A DNA stretch of 19,613 bases from Tissierellia bacterium (GTDB taxonomy: Bacteria > Bacillota > Clostridia > Tissierellales > Peptoniphilaceae), in contig JAAYNG010000096.1 in NCBI GenBank assembly GCA_012520935.1, forward strand, positions 1 to 19,613. The letters are read 5' to 3'. Positions 1,963 to 18,714 of this stretch are shown here, in pieces. Numbering within the stretch: the stretch's first letter is position 1; each line of letters opens with the position of its first letter. Under the pieces are notes generated by a model that was given only the letters and a program-made list of their open reading frames with translations, did not search any database and was not told the DNA's origin. The position numbers and the translations under genes are program-made.

Positions 1963-2613
1963 ATGCCAATGACATCTAGGCAGAAGATTAAGCTTTTAAA
2001 GGATAATGGTTTTACATATATACCAAGTGGCGATGGTTCTCATAAGAAGTTTAAAAATTTCAAGATTGGTAGAACTACCATAGTTCCGGACTATCCAGGC
2101 AAGGAGTTGGGAAAGGTTTTGGAGCATGAAATTTTGAAACAAGCAGGTCTTAACATGAATTGTTTAATGAAGGAGGGGATTGTTATGTTTGTTGTTTATC
2201 CTGCTATTTTTTTAAAGGGATTTGATGGAGGATATACTGTTAATGTGCCTGACTTAGATGGTTGTTTGACAGAGGGAAAAAATTTATACGAAGCTTTTGA
2301 AATGGCTGAGGATGCTATTTGTTCTTATCTTTTTGAGCACTATATTGATAAGATTGCTTTTCCTCCTGCTTCAGATATTTCAAACATAGAGATTAAATTA
2401 GATGAAGAAGAAAAGTTAATTTTTGATTTGTCCGGGTCTTTTATAAGTTATGTTCATGCTAATGTGGGAGAATTTATTAAGAGAAGTGAGAATAAGGCTG
2501 TTAAAAAGACTTTATCTATTCCAAGCTACCTTAATGAAATTGGAATTAGCAAAGGAGTTAATTTTTCTCAAATCTTACAGGATGCACTGAAAAATGAATT
2601 TAACCTTAGTTAA
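1963..2613 (+). CDS. hicAB: HicA toxin domain fused in frame to HicB antitoxin (216 aa). HicB also has its own RBS and ATG at 2185.
   Basis: Residues 1-63 match HicA: GSH catalytic motif, KELGKVLEHEILKQAGL C-terminus. From about residue 75 the protein is HicB-like (MFVVYPAIFLKGFDGGYTVNVPDLDGCLTEGKNLYEAFEMAEDAI, RNase-H-like fold). The C-terminus looks like a ribbon-helix-helix DNA-binding tail. There is no in-frame stop between the two domains. An internal AAGGAGGGG RBS sits 7 nt before ATG 2185. Confidence 0.75.
   Translation: MPMTSRQKIKLLKDNGFTYIPSGDGSHKKFKNFKIGRTTIVPDYPGKELGKVLEHEILKQAGLNMNCLMKEGIVMFVVYPAIFLKGFDGGYTVNVPDLDGCLTEGKNLYEAFEMAEDAICSYLFEHYIDKIAFPPASDISNIEIKLDEEEKLIFDLSGSFISYVHANVGEFIKRSENKAVKKTLSIPSYLNEIGISKGVNFSQILQDALKNEFNLS
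2185..2613 (+). CDS. hicB: HicB antitoxin (independent translation start inside the fused ORF)
   Basis: Strong internal SD AAGGAGGGG at 2169-2177 with a 7-nt spacer to ATG 2185. The sequence from MFVVYP onward is a typical HicB N-terminus. Confidence 0.6.
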   Translation: MFVVYPAIFLKGFDGGYTVNVPDLDGCLTEGKNLYEAFEMAEDAICSYLFEHYIDKIAFPPASDISNIEIKLDEEEKLIFDLSGSFISYVHANVGEFIKRSENKAVKKTLSIPSYLNEIGISKGVNFSQILQDALKNEFNLS

Positions 2614-7212: not shown

Positions 7213-7578
7213 ATGGCCTTTAAATTGTCTTCTCCATTTAGAACAGAAATGAGTGATGGAGGTCCATTTGGAAATACTTTCTCTATTTTTGGCACAATTT
7301 TTCCTTTATTTGGAATAATATTTGTAATTTCAGGAATTGTTACTGCTGTAATAAGTTACAACAACGCATTTGGGAAAAATCGGTTTTCAGAATATGATAT
7401 AATGGATTCAGATGAAGAGGTTGACCCATTTCAAAAGTTTGTGGACAGCAGGGATGATGATTATATGGATGAAGAGGACAATGGCGATATAGGGGAGGCA
7501 AACTTCTGTCCAAACTGCGGGGCAAAAGCTGAAGGGGACTTTGAATACTGCCATAAGTGTGGGAGTAAACTACCTTAA
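7213..7578 (+). CDS. Small membrane protein with an acidic linker and a C-terminal zinc ribbon. The probable true start is ATG 7115, via a frameshift.
   Basis: C-terminal CPNCGAKAEGDFEYCHKCGSKL (CxxC-N10-CxxC). There is a TM helix after Met-1. Upstream in the same frame the reading is open and encodes a second TM helix (FIGSIVAVVFGIFWTV) with no start codon. ATG 7115 overlaps the holA stop (ATGA) and reads MSNKRSIKREG in the other frame up to a stop at 7178. Confidence 0.6.
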   Translation: MAFKLSSPFRTEMSDGGPFGNTFSIFGTIFPLFGIIFVISGIVTAVISYNNAFGKNRFSEYDIMDSDEEVDPFQKFVDSRDDDYMDEEDNGDIGEANFCPNCGAKAEGDFEYCHKCGSKLP

Positions 7579-11261: not shown

Positions 11262-11516
11262 AATCATACTAAAGAGTTGATAAAGGGTAGTAGTTAAGAT
11301 AGGTTCGTCCAAGAGAGCGGCGTTTGGTGGGATGTCGTATGAAGGTCTTAATGAATGGGCTTTTGATTGCAAACCGAAATAATAGTAGGCTTTGACGGAA
11401 TTCGAAACGTTATATTCGAGGCACATATGTGCAAAGTGGGCTATTTTATATAGTCAATTTAGGTGGCACCGCAGGTACTCCTGTCCTATTTTTTATATGG
11501 GATTGGGAGTTTTTTT
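11262..11516 (+). promoter_or_regulatory. T-box riboswitch leader, apparent specifier UGG (Trp)
   Basis: Conserved T-box sequence AATTTAGGTGGCACCGCAGG at 11456-11475, with a 7-nt UGGCACC bulge in a foldable antiterminator (11460-11488). A mutually exclusive terminator hairpin (11477-11510) is followed by T7. Stem I elements: AGAGAG bulge at 11312-11317, distal loop GGCGUUUGGUGGGA. The specifier loop has GUAGUAG opposite UGAAUGGG (GAA-UGG-G at 11353-11359). Confidence 0.7.
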
Positions 11517-11542: not shown

Positions 11543-12508
11543 ATGAAGAAGTTATTTATTTTGTTTTTAGGACTTATTATTTTAATAGGTTGTGGGCAGG
11601 TAGATGAAGGAAGTGGAACTAGCAAGAAGAAGGTAGGTATTGTTCAGTTTGCTGAACACCCATCCTTGACAAACTGCACAAATGGATTTATTGAAGGCAT
11701 AAAGGAAGCCTATGGAGAGAATCTTGAAATAGATTTGAAGAACGCAACAGGTGAAGGGCAAAATGCAGCCCTAATTACAGACCAGTTTGTTTCAAAGAAA
11801 TATGACTTAGTGTGTGCAGTTGCCACCCCTGCAGCCATGTCAGCCTTTAATAGTTCTGACGGAATAGTCCCTGTGGTTTTCTCAGCAGTTTCTGACCCCG
11901 TTGCAGCAGGTTTGGTAGAAAGCCTTGAAAGTCCAGGTACAAACTGTACTGGGACAAGTGATACCTTGCCAATTGATACCCAACTTCAACTTATAAAGGA
12001 TTTAGTTCCAAATGCAAGCAAGATAGGTATACTATACACAACAAGTGAGGTAAACTCTCAAACTAACCTTAAGAGGATGGAAGAGTCCAGTCAAAAGTTT
12101 GGCTTTGAAATCATACCTATTGGTATTAATAACGCAGATGAAATTCCAATGGCAACCGATGCTCTTTTGAAAAAAGTTGATGTAATTACTATGCTCACAG
12201 ATAATAAGGTTGTGGATAACCTAAAACTTATTACAGACAAGGCTAGGGCTGCTGGTGTCCCTGTCTTTGGGTCTGAAGAGGAACAATTAAATTCCGGCTG
12301 TGTGGCAGCTATGAATATAAATTATTTTGACCTTGGAGTTGAAACCGGAAAGATAGGTGCGGAACTTTTGAAGGGAAAGGATGCAAAGGAGATTCCAGTT
12401 ATGGTTATCGACTCTGCCAACCCTGTATTAAATCCCGCCATTATCTCAGAGTATGGTCTTGAGATACCGGAAGCTTTAAAAGAAGCTAAAACCTACGGAG
12501 GGGAATAG
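11543..12508 (+). CDS. ABC transporter substrate-binding lipoprotein (ABC_sub_bind / COG2984 family)
   Basis: Signal peptide with LIGC lipobox. The VGIVQFAEHPSL...GFIEGIKE N-terminal block is typical of this family. Confidence 0.75.
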   Translation: MKKLFILFLGLIILIGCGQVDEGSGTSKKKVGIVQFAEHPSLTNCTNGFIEGIKEAYGENLEIDLKNATGEGQNAALITDQFVSKKYDLVCAVATPAAMSAFNSSDGIVPVVFSAVSDPVAAGLVESLESPGTNCTGTSDTLPIDTQLQLIKDLVPNASKIGILYTTSEVNSQTNLKRMEESSQKFGFEIIPIGINNADEIPMATDALLKKVDVITMLTDNKVVDNLKLITDKARAAGVPVFGSEEEQLNSGCVAAMNINYFDLGVETGKIGAELLKGKDAKEIPVMVIDSANPVLNPAIISEYGLEIPEALKEAKTYGGE

Positions 12509-14208: not shown

Positions 14209-14415
14209 CTATTTTTCAGAGCTTACTTTGTCTTTAAGTTCCTTGACTAACTTTTCGTAGTCTATCCCATGCTTAGATGTAAAGTCTCCTAACTTATCAA
14301 AAAGATTATTACACATTACACATTTACCAACGACCTCGTCATAGGGTTTAAAAACTATTTCTGTTTCTGGATGTTCAGATACGATATCCAGTATAACACT
14401 CTCCTTATTAAACAT
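14209..14415 (-). CDS. DUF1858-type small redox-disulfide protein (hybrid-cluster-protein-associated family)
   Basis: 68 aa with a CxxC pair (CVMC) and an I.DI....P....VF N-terminus typical of DUF1858. RBS AAGGAGG on the minus strand. Confidence 0.55.
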   Translation of the reverse strand: MFNKESVILDIVSEHPETEIVFKPYDEVVGKCVMCNNLFDKLGDFTSKHGIDYEKLVKELKDKVSSEK

Positions 14416-14459: not shown

Positions 14460-14815
14460 GCTAAATATCATTTGAGTAACATCAACAATACTATCTTTTC
14501 TTTCCAAATAACAGGGAAAGGACAAATAAAACTATAAAGATAAAAAACAAATTAGCTATGGAAGTTGCAGCTCCTGCTATGCCACCAAAGCCAAAAATTG
14601 CAGCTATTATTGCTATTATTATAAATATTATTGAATACCTTAACCTATACTTACCTCCTCAATTTGTATTTACTAGATTAGTCTTATGATACCCGAATAA
14701 TTAAAGTTAAACGAAAAAATATTTAAAGGATAAAATAAATATTTAATAAATTTATCAATTTATGATTAATTTGACTGTGCAATAGTGTATAATAGTAAAA
14801 AAAGGAGGGATAATA

Positions 14816-16030
14816 ATGGGAATTATTAAAGCTGTAACAGGAGCTGTGGGTGGAGCCTTAGCTGACCAGTGGCTAGATGCCTTTGAAGCCTATGATATGG
14901 GACCAAGCACAGTCTTTACTTATGGGGCACCAATTAGAAACGACAAGAGGAGTTCAAATACAAAAGGAACAAGCGACTATATTACAGATGGGTCTAAAAT
15001 CCATGTTGGACCTAATCAATTTATGATGCTATTAGATGGTGGTAGGGTCGTAGACTATACTGCAGAGGAAGGTTATTATACTGTAGATATGAAAACTCAA
15101 CCATCTCTCTTTAATGGCGACTTTGGCGATGCAATAAAAGAGTCCTTTGAGAGGATTAAGTTTGGAGGTGGGACTCCGACTAAGCAACAAGTTTTTTACA
15201 TCAACCTTCAAGAAATTAAGAACATAAAATTCGGGACTGCAAATCCACTAAATTATTTTGACGACTTCTATAATGCGGAGTTGTTCTTAAGAACTTTTGG
15301 AGACTATTCTATAAGGATTACCGACCCTTTGAAATTTTTCAGAGAAGTGGTTCCAAGAAATGCTAACAAGGTAGACATAGATGAAATTGACGACCAATTC
15401 TATTCGGAATTTATGACTGCCCTACAATCTACAATGAACAAGATGTCTGCAGATGGCTTTAGGATTTCCCATGTTTCTTCAAGGGGACAGGAGTTATCTG
15501 ACTATATGAGTCAGGCACTTGATGAAAAGTGGATGGACCTTAGGGGCTTTGAAATTGTTTCTGTAGGTATTACAAGTATTTCTTATGACGACGAGTCTAA
15601 GGAATTAATAAACATGAGGAACAAGGGGGCTATGCTGGGAGACCCTAGCGTTCGAGAGGGTTATGTTCAAGGCTCTATAGCCAGAGGCTTGGAAGCTGCC
15701 GGTTCCAATGAAGGCGGAGCAACAGGTGCCTTTATAGGTATGGGCATGGGTATGCAGAATGCCGGCTCATATATGGCTGGCGTATCACAAGTGAATCAAC
15801 AACAAATGCAGGCCCAACAACAAGCCCAACAACAGGCGCAAAGTCAACAGGTGCAAGGTCAAGCCGGTGGGTGGAAGTGTACAGAGTGCGGAACATCTAA
15901 TTCAGGTAAATTCTGTACTAACTGTGGTGCAAAGGCTCCTGAAGTTTCTGCATCTAAATTCTGTTCAAATTGTGGAACAAAACTTGGAGAAGGGGCTAAG
16001 TTCTGTACTGAATGTGGAACTAAACTATAG
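14816..16030 (+). CDS. SPFH/Band-7 family protein (Band_7_1 type, YdjI-like) with a Q-rich linker and a C-terminal double zinc ribbon
   Basis: The N-terminus MGIIKAVTGAVGGALADQW is characteristic of the Band_7_1 SPFH family. C-terminus: CTECG...CTNCG and CSNCG...CTECG, two CxxC-N7-10-CxxC ribbons. Strong RBS AAGGAGGG. Confidence 0.75.
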   Translation: MGIIKAVTGAVGGALADQWLDAFEAYDMGPSTVFTYGAPIRNDKRSSNTKGTSDYITDGSKIHVGPNQFMMLLDGGRVVDYTAEEGYYTVDMKTQPSLFNGDFGDAIKESFERIKFGGGTPTKQQVFYINLQEIKNIKFGTANPLNYFDDFYNAELFLRTFGDYSIRITDPLKFFREVVPRNANKVDIDEIDDQFYSEFMTALQSTMNKMSADGFRISHVSSRGQELSDYMSQALDEKWMDLRGFEIVSVGITSISYDDESKELINMRNKGAMLGDPSVREGYVQGSIARGLEAAGSNEGGATGAFIGMGMGMQNAGSYMAGVSQVNQQQMQAQQQAQQQAQSQQVQGQAGGWKCTECGTSNSGKFCTNCGAKAPEVSASKFCSNCGTKLGEGAKFCTECGTKL

Positions 16031-16038
16031 GTGATGCT

Positions 16039-17094
16039 ATGTCTTCTGTAGATCAATATAAATGTATTTCTTGCGGGGCTCCAATATTTTTTAAGCCCGA
16101 AGTAGGGAAATTTAAGTGCGATTACTGCAATTCAGAATACACCGAAGAGGAACTTACCGCTTATTTAGAGAGTCTGAAGGAAGGCAAGGAAACAAAAGAA
16201 GAAACAAGGGGAGAAACATCTGGTGAATACCAACAGTATCACTGCAATAACTGTGGGGCTGAAGTGGTTTCAGATACTGAAACCACTGCAACCTTCTGTT
16301 ATTACTGCCATTCGCCGGTTATAATATCATCAAGGCTTTCAGGTGAATTTAAGCCTGAGAGGATTGTTCCTTTTAAAGTATCCAAGGATAAGGCTGTAGA
16401 AATCTTCTTAGACTGGGCTGGAGGCAAAAAGTATGTGCCGAATGACTTTGGAAAGAAAGAACATATAGATAAGATGACAGGTATTTATATTCCATACTGG
16501 TCCTATGATGTTGTTTTAGATGTTGATTACCAAGCCATTGGCGAGAATGTAAGTGTTTGGACAAGTGGAGATGTGGAATATACAAACACTAAGCAGTATT
16601 CCATTGTAAGGTCAGGGGACATGGAATTTAACAACATTGATGAGCTGGCCACAGATAAGTTTGAAGAGAGGTTATTAAATGGAATTTCTCCTTATGAAGA
16701 GGATTCTGAAGTGGAATTTTCTAAAGGCTACCTGTCAGGTTTTTTTGCAGAGTCTTTCAATGTAGACCGTGATGCCTGCATGCCGGATGTGGAGGAAAGA
16801 GTGAAAAACTATTCCAGCAACTTGCTGGCTGATGCAACCGGAAACTACTCCAGGGTAAAGGTGGAGAGGGATAACCGAAATATTAAGAAGGCTGAGGAAC
16901 AATATGCCCTGTATCCGGCATGGATACTCACATATAACTTTAATGGCAAGATTTATGTGTTTGCAATCAATGGGCAAACAGGCAAGGCCTTTGGTGAACT
17001 GCCTGTTGATAACGGGAAGCTATATAGGACAACAGGAATAATATTTGCAATAATAGCCGTCCTTCTTGTGTTGGGAGGTTTGTTCATATGGTAA
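16039..17094 (+). CDS. Double zinc-ribbon protein with a C-terminal TM anchor (YdjG-like partner)
   Basis: N-terminal CISCG...CDYC and CNNCG...CYYC ribbons, a central soluble domain, and a C-terminal hydrophobic helix IIFAIIAVLLVLGGLFIW. It starts 8 nt after the SPFH gene. Confidence 0.65.
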   Translation: MSSVDQYKCISCGAPIFFKPEVGKFKCDYCNSEYTEEELTAYLESLKEGKETKEETRGETSGEYQQYHCNNCGAEVVSDTETTATFCYYCHSPVIISSRLSGEFKPERIVPFKVSKDKAVEIFLDWAGGKKYVPNDFGKKEHIDKMTGIYIPYWSYDVVLDVDYQAIGENVSVWTSGDVEYTNTKQYSIVRSGDMEFNNIDELATDKFEERLLNGISPYEEDSEVEFSKGYLSGFFAESFNVDRDACMPDVEERVKNYSSNLLADATGNYSRVKVERDNRNIKKAEEQYALYPAWILTYNFNGKIYVFAINGQTGKAFGELPVDNGKLYRTTGIIFAIIAVLLVLGGLFIW

Positions 17095-17852
17095 AAAGAA
17101 TAATAATATTAATAATGCTTGTTTTATTATTAAGCCTGCCATCAATTGCCAATGCCGAAGTTGACCATCTTGTTTTCTTGGATGGAAACCAAGAAAAGTA
17201 CATGACTGATAAGGAAGCCAATGAGTTTAGGACTAGGTTGGAAGAGATTTCAGATAAGCATAATGCAGACTTTGTAATAATTTTCAAGGAAAATGTTGGT
17301 AACGCTCAAAGTTATGCAGAACAATACTATGTAAACAATAATCTAGGCAGGGGACCTAACAAAGACGGGGTTATTCTTCTAATAAATATGGCCGGCGGTC
17401 CCGGCAATAGGGATATTTATATTGCAACCCATGGCATATCTAAAGATTATATTACAGATAAAAAAATAGATAAACTATTGGATGTCCTAATTGACAATGG
17501 GCTGGGGGACTATATTTACTATGAGCCGATATCAGCCTATATTAAAAATTTGGATAAGCTTCATAGGGGGAACTATGTAAGCCCTCTTGATGCCTTGATA
17601 TCTGCAGTGGCAGGTTTATTTGCATCCGGTGGCTATGCTGCAAAGGTAAAGAGAGAATATAAGGCCTCCAATCCTTCAAAACAATATAGGATGGCCTCTA
17701 ATGCTATAGCAAACTATGCAAGTGAAAGTGACAACTTTATAAGAGAATATACTACATCAAGAACTATACCAAAGCCTTCAAGCTCAAGTTCAAGTGGCGG
17801 TGGAGGTAGTAGCGGCGGGTCAAGTTTTGGTGGTGGAGGAAGAAAGTTCTGA
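17088..17852 (+). CDS. TPM-domain (TLP18.3/Psb32/MOLO-1 phosphatase-like) membrane protein with a Gly/Ser-rich tail
   Basis: Signal peptide, then a TPM core (DFVIIFKENVG...GVILLINMAGGPGNRDIYIATHGIS), a TM helix, and an SSSSSSGGGGSSGGSSFGGGG tail. The ATG overlaps the upstream stop (ATGGTAA). Confidence 0.75.
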   Translation: MVKRIIILIMLVLLLSLPSIANAEVDHLVFLDGNQEKYMTDKEANEFRTRLEEISDKHNADFVIIFKENVGNAQSYAEQYYVNNNLGRGPNKDGVILLINMAGGPGNRDIYIATHGISKDYITDKKIDKLLDVLIDNGLGDYIYYEPISAYIKNLDKLHRGNYVSPLDALISAVAGLFASGGYAAKVKREYKASNPSKQYRMASNAIANYASESDNFIREYTTSRTIPKPSSSSSSGGGGSSGGSSFGGGGRKF

Positions 17853-17853
17853 T

Positions 17854-18579
17854 ATGTATAAAGACTTTTCAAAAGTATATGACTTATTGATGTGGGATTA
17901 TGACTATGAAAAATGGTCTGAATATTATAAAGAAATTTTTGAAAGCTTTTCAATTGCACCGGAAACGATATTAGAAGTGGGTGCAGGAACAGGGTCTATG
18001 ACTGAAGTACTCTCTAGAGATTATAGGGAAGTAGTGGCCATAGACCCTTCTCCTGCCATGCTTACACTTGCAAGGGAAAAGCTATTTGATGCTCGTAATG
18101 TTAGATTTTTATTAAAGGACATAAGGGACTTTGAGATTGAAAAAAAGTTTGATGCCTGTGTCGCTGCCTGTGATGTCATGAACTATATGCTCACAAAAGA
18201 GGATTTTATTTTAGCCTTAAAAAATGTAAGGGGAGCTTTGAGGGAAGGTGGACTTTTCTTATTTGATATGAGTTCATATTATAAGCTCTCTGAAATGCTT
18301 GGAGATAACACCTTTATTCACGATACTGAAGATATTTATTATGTCTTTCAGGGAGAATTTGCAGGGGATACAGAACATATAGACTTGAATATTTTTATTA
18401 AAGAAGGGGATTTTTATAAAAGATATTCAGAGGTGCAAAGTATGAGAGCTTACAAGATAAAAGAGGTGCTTTCGATGGTAGACCAAGCTGGCTTTAGAGA
18501 ATTTGAAGCCCTTGCCCCTTTTTCTTTTAGCAGGCCAAAAGAGGTTACTGAAAGGATTTTATTTTTAGGGCGTAAATAG
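17854..18579 (+). CDS. Class I SAM-dependent methyltransferase
   Basis: Motif I ILEVGAGTGSMT, acidic motif II VVAIDPS, and a post-I ACDVMNY. It starts 1 nt after the TPM stop. The tracked upstream extension to 17794 overlaps the TPM gene in another frame. Confidence 0.75.
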   Translation: MYKDFSKVYDLLMWDYDYEKWSEYYKEIFESFSIAPETILEVGAGTGSMTEVLSRDYREVVAIDPSPAMLTLAREKLFDARNVRFLLKDIRDFEIEKKFDACVAACDVMNYMLTKEDFILALKNVRGALREGGLFLFDMSSYYKLSEMLGDNTFIHDTEDIYYVFQGEFAGDTEHIDLNIFIKEGDFYKRYSEVQSMRAYKIKEVLSMVDQAGFREFEALAPFSFSRPKEVTERILFLGRK

Positions 18580-18685: not shown

Positions 18686-18714
18686 TTGACTCAATGACTT
18701 TAATATGTTAAAAT
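18686..18714 (+). promoter_or_regulatory. Sigma-A type promoter TTGACT-17-TAAAAT, flanked by direct repeats (T)(G/C)AAAGAGTTG at 18675-18685 and 18735-18745
   Basis: Hexamers and spacer counted directly. The repeat copies match at 9 of 11 positions. Confidence 0.5.

What the first reader, a model, noticed from the sequence alone, without database searches (positions are those of the whole stretch)
14816..18579. Translationally coupled SPFH(Band-7)-double-zinc-ribbon / ZnR-TM / TPM operon without PspA
Three consecutive genes, with an 8-nt gap and then an ATGGTAA overlap between them, encode:
- an SPFH/Band_7_1 protein carrying its own C-terminal double zinc ribbon;
- a membrane-anchored protein with two N-terminal zinc ribbons;
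- a TPM-domain membrane protein with a Gly/Ser tail.
A SAM methyltransferase starts 1 nt after the TPM stop. The domain set matches the B. subtilis pspA-ydjGHI envelope-stress module, but the gene order differs (I-G-H) and no pspA/Snf7 gene lies within the window. Fusion of the zinc ribbon onto the SPFH protein and the tightly linked methyltransferase are not part of the described module. This may be a PspA-independent membrane-organising or stress system, possibly with phage-related roles; SPFH plus zinc-ribbon pairs also occur in defence islands.
Basis: partly seen in the sequence, partly recalled or inferred. Interest (0 to 1): 0.7.

Follow-up and report, generated by a model that had tools for sequence, protein, structure and literature searches.

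The report
SPFH, zinc-ribbon, TPM membrane-stress cassette
Three tightly packed genes encode the widespread counterpart of the Bacillus subtilis YdjI/YdjG/YdjH (SamI/G/H) membrane-stress complex, here in a different gene order and without a neighbouring pspA; it is a conserved, ordinary chromosomal module, and the adjacent methyltransferase is not part of it.

Summary
Three co-directional genes sit at 14816-16030, 16039-17094 and 17088-17852, separated by an 8-nt gap and an ATGGTAA overlap. They encode:
- a Band_7_1 SPFH protein with a C-terminal double zinc ribbon;
- a tail-anchored protein with two N-terminal zinc ribbons;
- a TPM-domain membrane protein with a Gly/Ser tail.

Each is a full-length homologue of B. 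subtilis YdjI, YdjG and YdjH (E 1e-13, 2e-61, 5e-8).

Two "unusual" features do not hold:
- **Zinc ribbon on the SPFH protein.** YdjI itself has one, and so do all 52 complete relatives examined.
- **Methyltransferase.** It is adjacent in only 2 of 85 loci, both of the same lineage.

Across the 85 loci, the YdjG-like gene is followed by the TPM gene in 77 of 81 informative loci. It is preceded by the SPFH gene in 56 of 77. No locus has a PspA gene within 10 kb. The PspA-free I-G-H cassette is therefore the common form among these relatives, and B. subtilis pspA-GHI is the exception in this sample.

No defence or phage link was found. A 2026 preprint already reports PspA-independent phenotypes for SamGHI.

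Verdict: a new member of a known kind, of low to moderate interest.

The parts
14766..14808 (+). Putative promoter and ribosome-binding site: weak -35-like TTAATT (14766-14771), 16-nt spacer, perfect TATAAT (14788-14793), GGAGG (14804-14808) 7 nt before the ATG
   Evidence: Read directly from the sequence. The consensus scan did not list it and found no more sites than in shuffles, so this is inference only.
14816..16030 (+). samI/ydjI-like gene: cytosolic SPFH (Band_7_1) protein, 404 aa. Layout: conserved N-terminal MGIIKA..GGALADQWL motif, SPFH domain (aa 56-268), Gly/Met- and Gln-rich linker, two C4 zinc ribbons (aa 355-404).
   Evidence: Pfam. No hydrophobic segment. 23% identity to YdjI, E 1e-13, collinear including the ribbon. 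N-terminal motif conserved in relatives. C-terminal CxxC motifs in 52 of 52 relatives.
16039..17094 (+). samG/ydjG-like gene: tail-anchored protein, 351 aa. Layout: two N-terminal C4 zinc ribbons (aa 9-30 and 69-90), beta-rich PepSY/YpeB-like domain (about aa 100-320), C-terminal transmembrane helix (aa 332-350).
17088..17852 (+). samH/ydjH-like gene: TPM-domain membrane protein, 254 aa. Layout: N-terminal signal or TM segment (aa 5-23, ...ANA), TPM domain (aa 35-157), weakly hydrophobic second segment (about aa 165-185), Ser/Gly tail ending GGGGRKF. Its start overlaps the stop of the previous gene (ATGGTAA).
   Evidence: Pfam TPM_phosphatase, E 1e-14. 21% identity to YdjH, E 5e-8, collinear. 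Tail and second-segment conservation. ATGGTAA overlap conserved in 38 of 85 loci.
17854..18579 (+). Class I SAM-dependent methyltransferase, 241 aa from the first ATG. Probably co-transcribed, but a lineage-specific neighbour and not part of the conserved module.
   Evidence: Pfam Methyltransf_25, E 9e-18. Below every NCBIfam cut-off. A homologue is adjacent only in L001. The next gene has its own promoter-like site at 18686-18714.

Best explanation
This is a SamI-SamG-SamH (YdjI-YdjG-YdjH) type envelope-stress module of an uncultured low-GC Bacillota bacterium. Its closest named relatives are Tissierellia.

**Inferred mechanism.**
- The TPM protein spans the membrane. Its TPM domain faces outside and its conserved Gly/Ser tail faces the cytoplasm.
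- The YdjG-like protein is held at the inner face by its C-terminal helix. Its two zinc ribbons and its PepSY-like domain lie in the cytoplasm.
- Together these two form the membrane sensor and anchor pair.
- They recruit the soluble SPFH protein, which oligomerises under the membrane. There it acts as a scaffold and brake on the sensor pair and influences membrane fluidity and stress signalling.

The 8-nt gap and the conserved overlapping stop/start suggest co-translation in fixed proportions. The cassette is self-contained. Whether it also docks a PspA/ESCRT-III protein encoded elsewhere is open.

**Shown:** gene layout, homology, domain make-up, conservation of the linkage, absence of pspA nearby.

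**Inferred:** topology, complex formation and function, which are transferred from B. subtilis genetics.
For: - **Homology.** All three proteins align collinearly with B. subtilis-type YdjI, YdjG and YdjH. Pfam families are the same on both sides.
- **Linkage.** Among 85 loci, TPM lies directly downstream of the YdjG-like gene in 77 of 81 informative loci. SPFH lies directly upstream in 56 of 77. Clustering of 1357 neighbouring genes found no other widely shared neighbour family apart from one scattered cluster that includes the window's ABC-transporter ATPase ORF.
- **Coupling.** The ATGGTAA, ATGGTAG or ATGGTGA overlap between G and TPM occurs in 50 of 85 loci. Most others have ATGA- or GTGA-type overlaps.
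- **Spread.** The same order is seen in Tissierellia, Clostridia, Lachnospiraceae, Treponema, Bacillaceae and Enterococcus. The family has 6390 representative clusters at E<=1e-3.
- **Topology cues**:
  - no hydrophobic segment in the SPFH protein;
  - a single C-terminal TM in G, preceded by K and R;
  - a signal-like N-terminus in the TPM protein, and a second hydrophobic segment in 63 of 73 relatives (KD>=1.6).
- **B. subtilis experiments.**
  - YdjG and YdjH are required for YdjI membrane foci, and YdjH interacts with YdjI and YdjG (PMC8581546).
  - SamI restrains SamGH signalling, and PspA is dispensable for that phenotype (bioRxiv 10.64898/2026.02.06.704340).
- **No pspA nearby.** PspA probes validated by Pfam and by a positive control gave no hit within 10 kb in any of the 85 loci. 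They also gave none in five further plasmid-collection loci.
Against: - Function is transferred across only 21-30% identity.
- The window-type SPFH is a divergent subfamily. Its Band_7_1 score is 68 bits against 147 for YdjI. It has an extra conserved N-terminal motif and a second ribbon, so details may differ.
- The second hydrophobic segment of the window's TPM protein is weak (below KD 1.6), so its topology is less certain.
- No expression, interaction or phenotype data exist for this organism.
- The rest of the genome is unknown, so a distal pspA cannot be excluded.
- In 21 of the 77 informative loci (about a quarter; mainly Ruminococcus) G-TPM occurs without the SPFH gene. The SPFH component is therefore not obligatory for the pair.
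Confidence: 0.72

Rival explanations
1. The cassette is only a docking platform for PspA. It has no function of its own and works with a pspA/liaH gene located elsewhere in the genome, as YdjGHI does for PspA foci in B. subtilis.
For: - In B. subtilis, PspA foci and membrane recruitment need YdjI, YdjG and YdjH (PMC8581546).
- Band-7 genes lie next to pspA in several phyla (PMC9239133).
- The window covers only 19.6 kb, so a distal pspA is possible.
Against: - None of 85 loci, nor five further loci from Proteobacteria, Actinomycetota and Enterococcus, has pspA within 5-10 kb.
- Persistent separation across so many lineages argues against an obligate partnership.
- In B. subtilis the delta-samI phenotype is independent of pspA.
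Confidence: 0.2
2. It is an anti-phage defence or phage-derived system, in which SPFH plus zinc-ribbon proteins sense infection.
For: - The YdjG-like protein has a weak PADLOC hit to candidate PDC-S64 (E 2e-5), confined to the zinc-ribbon region.
- One distant Vibrio plasmid homologue pair lies next to a TIR-domain gene.
- A HicA/HicB-type ORF lies about 12 kb upstream.
Against: - PADLOC gave no hit for the SPFH or TPM proteins.
- PHROGs gave only ribbon-level matches.
- Only 9-10 of 50,697 phage records match. These are unannotated fragments or poorly curated records that look like host DNA.
- Neighbours in the window and in relatives are housekeeping genes: comEC, holA, ABC transporters, rpsT, prfB and dnaX.
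- No defence gene family recurs in the neighbourhoods.
Confidence: 0.03
3. The methyltransferase is a functional fourth component. It would methylate one of the three proteins or a lipid, making this a new four-gene system.
For: - Its ATG lies 1 nt after the TPM stop codon, and no terminator intervenes.
- The same arrangement occurs in the 86%-identical relative L001.
Against: - It is absent from the other 83 loci.
- The next-closest relative in this set (58% identity, L002) has a different downstream gene.
- The protein is a generic class I methyltransferase that falls below every curated NCBIfam cut-off.
Confidence: 0.04

Closest known systems
Bacillus subtilis pspA-ydjGHI (renamed pspA-samGHI) operon
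   Same: - All three proteins are homologous and collinear: G at 30% identity (E 2e-61), I at 23% (E 1e-13), H at 21% (E 5e-8).
- Pfam families are the same.
- The SPFH protein has no membrane anchor, and has a low-complexity linker and a C-terminal zinc ribbon.
- G has two ribbons plus a C-terminal TM.
- H has a TPM domain plus a Gly/Ser-rich tail.
   Different: - Gene order is I-G-H instead of G-H-I.
- No pspA lies upstream.
- The SPFH protein is 80 aa longer. It has a conserved N-terminal MG[LI]IKA..GGsLADQWLE motif that YdjI lacks, and two ribbons instead of one.
- A sigma-W promoter was not found, but that test was inconclusive.
SPFH-NfeD pairs (E. coli QmcA-YbbJ, YqiK-YqiJ; B. subtilis FloA/FloT with NfeD proteins) and HflK/C-FtsH
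   Same: An SPFH scaffold is encoded next to its membrane partner. The expected role is an oligomeric assembly that organises or restrains a membrane complex. This rests on established knowledge and on the discussion.
   Different: - Those SPFH proteins carry their own membrane anchor and long coiled-coil or flotillin regions.
- Here the SPFH protein is soluble and ends in zinc ribbons.
- The partners here are YdjG-like and TPM proteins. No NfeD or FtsH gene is present.
E. coli PspABC phage-shock system
   Same: It has the same logic: a membrane sensor pair is held in check by a peripheral regulator. The 2026 preprint draws this analogy.
   Different: There is no sequence homology of G or H to PspB or PspC. 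No PspA or PspF is present in the window.
SPFH-YdjG-like two-gene pairs of Proteobacteria and Actinomycetota (Vibrio, Comamonas, Paracoccus, Tsukamurella)
   Same: - The order is the same, SPFH then the YdjG-like gene.
- No pspA is nearby.
   Different: - They have no TPM gene.
- Identity to the window's G is only 23-24%.
- Their SPFH proteins are closer to YdjI than to the window protein.

Membership tests
YdjGHI / SamGHI membrane-stress module | Band_7_1 SPFH protein without its own membrane anchor, with a low-complexity linker and a C-terminal zinc ribbon (YdjI/SamI) | tested here: met
   Pfam Band_7_1 plus DZR and Zn_Ribbon_1. No hydrophobic segment. BLASTP to YdjI E 1e-13, including the ribbon.
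YdjGHI / SamGHI membrane-stress module | YdjG/SamG-type protein: two N-terminal zinc ribbons, a YpeB/PepSY-like domain and a C-terminal TM | tested here: met
YdjGHI / SamGHI membrane-stress module | YdjH/SamH-type TPM-domain membrane protein with a low-complexity tail | tested here: met
   Pfam TPM_phosphatase E 1e-14. BLASTP to YdjH E 5e-8, collinear. Conserved ...GGGGRKF tail.
YdjGHI / SamGHI membrane-stress module | The three genes are adjacent in one operon | tested here: met
   8-nt gap and 7-nt overlap. The adjacency is conserved in most of the 85 loci.
YdjGHI / SamGHI membrane-stress module | Operon headed by pspA, with gene order pspA-G-H-I | tested here: not met
   The order is I-G-H. 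No PspA_IM30 gene is in the window or within 10 kb in any related locus. The probes detect PspA in the control locus L086.
YdjGHI / SamGHI membrane-stress module | Sigma-W-dependent promoter | tested here: inconclusive
   The pattern TGAAAC-N15-18-CGTA, recalled from memory, gave 0 matches in the window. It also gave 0 matches in the B. subtilis-type control locus.
YdjGHI / SamGHI membrane-stress module | G and H recruit I to the membrane; the proteins interact physically | not testable with these tools
   Known only for B. subtilis (PMC8581546).
Known anti-phage defence systems (PADLOC) | Proteins match models of a known or candidate defence system, and the locus lies among defence genes | tested here: not met
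   No hit for the SPFH or TPM proteins. G has only a ribbon-only hit to PDC-S64, and the methyltransferase only a domain-level hit to mad2. Neighbours are housekeeping genes.
SPFH-NfeD operons | An NfeD-family partner gene lies next to the SPFH gene | tested here: not met
   No NfeD family appeared in Pfam scans of the cassette and the larger window ORFs.

The most novel reading that the evidence does not exclude
The PspA-free I-G-H cassette is an autonomous envelope-stress sensor and scaffold system, and it represents the ancestral, general form. An SPFH plus YdjG-like pair is shared across Bacillota, Spirochaetota, Proteobacteria and Actinomycetota. The TPM protein was added in Bacillota and Spirochaetota. 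On this reading the B. subtilis link to PspA/ESCRT-III is a late, lineage-specific recruitment. The window-type SPFH subfamily, with its conserved N-terminal motif and double ribbon, would work without any ESCRT-III partner.
Probability: 0.4. Interest if true: 0.45.

Novelty: new member of a known kind. Interest (0 to 1): 0.27.

Why it matters
The YdjGHI/SamGHI module has been studied only in B. subtilis, where it is fused to a pspA operon and is usually read as a PspA accessory.

This analysis shows two things:
- The same three proteins occur as a tightly coupled, pspA-free cassette in many other Bacillota and in Treponema.
- An SPFH plus YdjG-like pair reaches Proteobacteria and Actinomycetota.

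This supports the recent genetic claim that the module has a function of its own. It also points to organisms in which that function could be tested without interference from PspA.

For annotation, the middle gene is usually labelled 'hypothetical protein' or mis-named as an RNA polymerase subunit or as PriA. It can instead be named YdjG/SamG-like.

Tried and rejected
- **Exact-protein look-up of the SPFH protein.** Not on record.
- **NCBIfam.** No specific model for any of the three proteins.
- **PHROGs.** Only ribbon-level hits.
- **PDB by sequence.** No relative with a solved structure for the SPFH or TPM proteins. Only ribbon matches for G.
- **AFDB fold library.** Not available.
- **Candidate neighbours suspected to be PspA or a divergent SPFH in Ruminococcus loci.** They turned out to be an NMN transporter (PnuC-like) and an Rce1/CPBP protease.
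- **Promoter and terminator scan.** Promoter-like sites were no more frequent than in shuffles, and no terminator-like site fell in the intergenic gaps of the cassette.
- **Sigma-W motif search.** Inconclusive, because the control locus also failed.
- **Supplement search of PMC11237479 for PspA in the relevant genera.** Nothing useful.
- **Whether cassette-bearing genomes have pspA elsewhere.** Could not be tested.
- **Rejected readings.** A four-gene system including the methyltransferase, a defence system, and chance adjacency were all considered and rejected.


Full report
**1. Observation**

The ORF list and the junction sequences confirm the layout.
- A 404-aa ORF lies at 14816-16030.
- After an 8-nt gap, a 351-aa ORF lies at 16039-17094.
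- A 254-aa ORF at 17088-17852 starts inside the previous stop codon (ATGGTAA).
- A methyltransferase follows, with its first ATG (17854) 1 nt after the TGA.

Each start has a Shine-Dalgarno sequence.

Pfam gives:
- Protein 1: Band_7_1 (E 1.5e-18, aa 56-268), plus DZR and Zn_Ribbon_1 (aa 355-404).
- Protein 2: nothing above cut-off.
- Protein 3: TPM_phosphatase (E 1e-14).
- Protein 4: Methyltransf_25 (E 9e-18).

Simple sequence analysis shows:
- Four CxxC motifs at each ribbon end: protein 1 at aa 355-400, protein 2 at aa 9-90.
- No hydrophobic segment in the SPFH protein.
- One strong C-terminal TM helix in protein 2 (aa 332-350).
- A signal-like N-terminal segment ending ANA in the TPM protein.

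The rest of the window is ordinary chromosome. It holds a subtilase, a HicA/HicB ORF, comEC, holA, an amidohydrolase, an MFS transporter and a T-box-controlled ABC transporter. GC content is 36.9%. No PspA gene is present.

**2. Homology to the B. subtilis module**

I used a primer sequence printed in PMC8581546 to recover a B. subtilis-type pspA-ydjG-ydjH-ydjI locus from the metagenome collection (L086). Its gene starts and ends match the published primers. Its proteins hit PspA_IM30, zinc-ribbon families, TPM_phosphatase and Band_7_1 plus a zinc ribbon.

Pairwise BLASTP gave full-length, collinear alignments:

| Window protein | B. subtilis protein | Identity | E-value |
|---|---|---|---|
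| G | YdjG | 30% | 2e-61 |
| SPFH | YdjI | 23% | 1e-13 (runs through the linker into the ribbon) |
| TPM | YdjH | 21% | 5e-8 |

**3. The two supposedly unusual features**

*Zinc ribbon on the SPFH protein.* YdjI itself ends in ...[23 protein letters not shown].
- Ravi et al. [quoted passage not shown] They describe YdjG as two ribbons plus a YpeB-related domain plus a TM. They describe YdjH as a TPM domain plus a low-complexity segment (PMC11237479).
- The 2026 preprint says the same of SamI.
- Among related loci, all 52 complete SPFH proteins have at least two CxxC motifs in the last 70 residues, and 36 have four.
- So the ribbon fusion is a family trait. Only the doubling differs from YdjI.

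*Methyltransferase.* It has a homologue next to the cassette only in L001, the 86%-identical relative.
- In L002 (58% identity), Treponema and an Alkaliphilus-type locus, the downstream genes are unrelated.
- It is a generic class I enzyme that falls below every curated NCBIfam cut-off.

**4. How widespread the linkage is**

The YdjG-like protein has 3428 database hits at E<=1e-3 in the word-indexed search. In the exhaustive search it has 6390 50%-identity cluster representatives at E<=1e-3, and 1246 at E<=1e-30.

A scan of species-representative genomes found at least 576 loci. The best 80 were fetched with 10-kb flanks. They come from Tissierellia, Clostridia, Oscillospiraceae, Lachnospiraceae, Ruminococcus, Peptostreptococcaceae, Treponema, two Bacillaceae and two Bacteroidota MAGs.

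I called ORFs locally and searched them with the window proteins. The set comprised these 80 loci, four fetched earlier and the window.
- TPM lies directly downstream of G in 77 of 81 loci with enough sequence.
- SPFH lies directly upstream in 56 of 77.
- The 21 loci without SPFH are mostly Ruminococcus, where G-TPM stands alone.
- The overlap ATGGTAA occurs in 38 of 85 loci, and ATGGTAG or ATGGTGA in 12 more. It encodes the conserved terminal Trp of G and the Met-Val start of the TPM protein.

Clustering of all 1357 neighbouring genes found no other widely shared neighbour family. The only large exception is one scattered cluster (31 loci), which includes the window's ABC-transporter ATPase ORF. 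Lineage-specific neighbours were seen: a Tim44-like plus zinc-ribbon protein in Lachnospiraceae, and a TM plus DnaJ protein in some Tissierella.

**5. PspA**

The real B. subtilis-type PspA from L086 was also used.
- All gave zero hits at E<=10 on every ORF of the 85 loci.
- They detected PspA in the control loci L085 and L086.
- Five annotated loci from the plasmid collection also lack pspA. These are Enterococcus gallinarum with SPFH-hypothetical-TPM, and Vibrio, Comamonas, Tsukamurella and Paracoccus with an SPFH-YdjG-like pair only.

In this sample the pspA-free SPFH-first order is therefore the rule, and pspA-G-H-I is the exception. I could not test whether these genomes carry pspA elsewhere.

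**6. Structure and topology**

An AlphaFold2 model of the YdjG-like protein, built from 83 sequences, is confident (pLDDT 88.5, pTM 0.81). It shows two ribbon modules, a disordered linker (aa 50-61), a beta-rich domain with very long hairpins, and the terminal helix.

Topology is inferred as follows.
- G has no signal peptide, has zinc ribbons, and has K and R before the single C-terminal helix. This indicates a cytoplasmic, tail-anchored protein.
- The TPM protein has a signal-like N-terminus. In 63 of 73 relatives it has a clear second hydrophobic segment (KD>=1.6), followed by a conserved ...HGGGGR[KSR]F tail. This suggests an external TPM domain and a cytoplasmic tail.
- The second segment is weaker in the window protein.

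The window-type SPFH proteins share an N-terminal motif, MG[LI]IKA..GGsLADQWLE, that YdjI lacks. They also score lower on Band_7_1 than YdjI (68 against 147 bits). The proteobacterial and actinobacterial SPFH partners are closer to YdjI. The window protein therefore belongs to a divergent subfamily.

**7. Mechanism**

In B. subtilis:
- YdjG and YdjH are needed for YdjI and PspA membrane foci.
- YdjH interacts with YdjI, YdjG and PspA (PMC8581546).
- Loss of SamI (YdjI) causes constitutive SamGH-dependent stress signalling.
- That signalling is suppressed by deleting samH and does not depend on pspA (bioRxiv 10.64898/2026.02.06.704340).

By homology, the window cassette most likely encodes a membrane sensor and anchor pair (TPM protein plus tail-anchored ribbon protein) and a soluble, oligomerising SPFH scaffold or brake. 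The tight coupling would keep the proportions fixed. All of this is inference for the present organism.

**8. Rivals**

- **A pure PspA docking role with a distal pspA.** This cannot be excluded. The consistent absence of linkage and the B. subtilis genetics make it less likely.
- **A defence or phage role.**
  - PADLOC has nothing for the SPFH or TPM proteins. It has only a ribbon-level hit for G and a generic domain hit for the methyltransferase.
  - Only 9-10 of 50,697 phage records match, and all are unannotated fragments.
  - The neighbourhoods are housekeeping.
- **The methyltransferase as a fourth component.** Its restriction to one shallow lineage rules this out.

**9. Verdict**

The cassette is an ordinary, very widespread member of the YdjGHI/SamGHI family. 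Neither the ribbon fusion nor the methyltransferase is a distinguishing feature.

The modestly useful point is that the pspA-free, SPFH-first arrangement is the general form. This fits the newly reported PspA-independent role of the module. Novelty: new member of a known kind. Interest: about 0.27.

Noticed in passing
window 14516-14650, minus strand: A short ORF reads ...[51 protein letters not shown]. From memory it resembles UPF0391/DUF1328 small membrane proteins. A GGAGG lies just upstream, but there is no in-frame ATG, GTG or TTG, and AGG sits where the Met codon would be expected. It could be a start-codon mutation, a sequencing error or a rare start codon.
   Followed up: partly
window 11268-11491, plus strand: A T-box leader (Rfam RF00230, 120.7 bits) lies upstream of the ABC-transporter substrate-binding gene at 11543-12508.
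   Followed up: no
window 1963-2613, plus strand: A single 216-aa ORF carries both a HicA toxin domain (aa 6-63) and a HicB-like antitoxin domain (aa 79-143). It looks like a fused toxin-antitoxin.
   Followed up: no
window 7213-7578, plus strand: A 121-aa protein downstream of holA has a C-terminal zinc ribbon (DUF7577/Zn_Ribbon_1). It matches the SPFH-ribbon profile weakly, through the ribbon only.
   Followed up: no
L053, L055, L057, L060, L077 (about 7.8-8.6 kb in L053): In Lachnospiraceae and Roseburia loci, a roughly 257-aa protein sits directly upstream of SPFH-G-TPM, after prfB. It has an N-terminal TM, a Tim44-like domain (Pfam E 2e-9) and a C-terminal zinc ribbon. It may be an extra, lineage-specific ribbon-bearing partner.
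   Followed up: partly
L006, L025, L047 (gene directly upstream of the cassette); also L014 1606-2391, where it lies elsewhere in the locus: A membrane protein with a C-terminal DnaJ (J) domain lies directly upstream of the cassette in some Tissierellia loci. In L047 it directly precedes G-TPM, and no SPFH gene is present.
   Followed up: no
L045-L051, L054, L056, L061-L063, L066, L071, L074, L083, L084: Ruminococcus-type loci carry only the G-TPM pair, with no SPFH gene within 10 kb. They often have an Rce1/CPBP-type membrane protease gene downstream.
   Followed up: partly
L088 1-3004 (Vibrio coralliilyticus plasmid NZ_CP048695): A distant SPFH plus YdjG-like pair lies next to a divergently oriented block of three genes that includes a TIR-domain gene. 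This was the only defence-like neighbour seen.
   Followed up: no
window 14209-14415, minus strand: A 68-aa protein has a weak match to the hybrid-cluster-protein-associated redox disulfide domain (DUF1858). It lies between the ABC transporter and the cassette.
   Followed up: no
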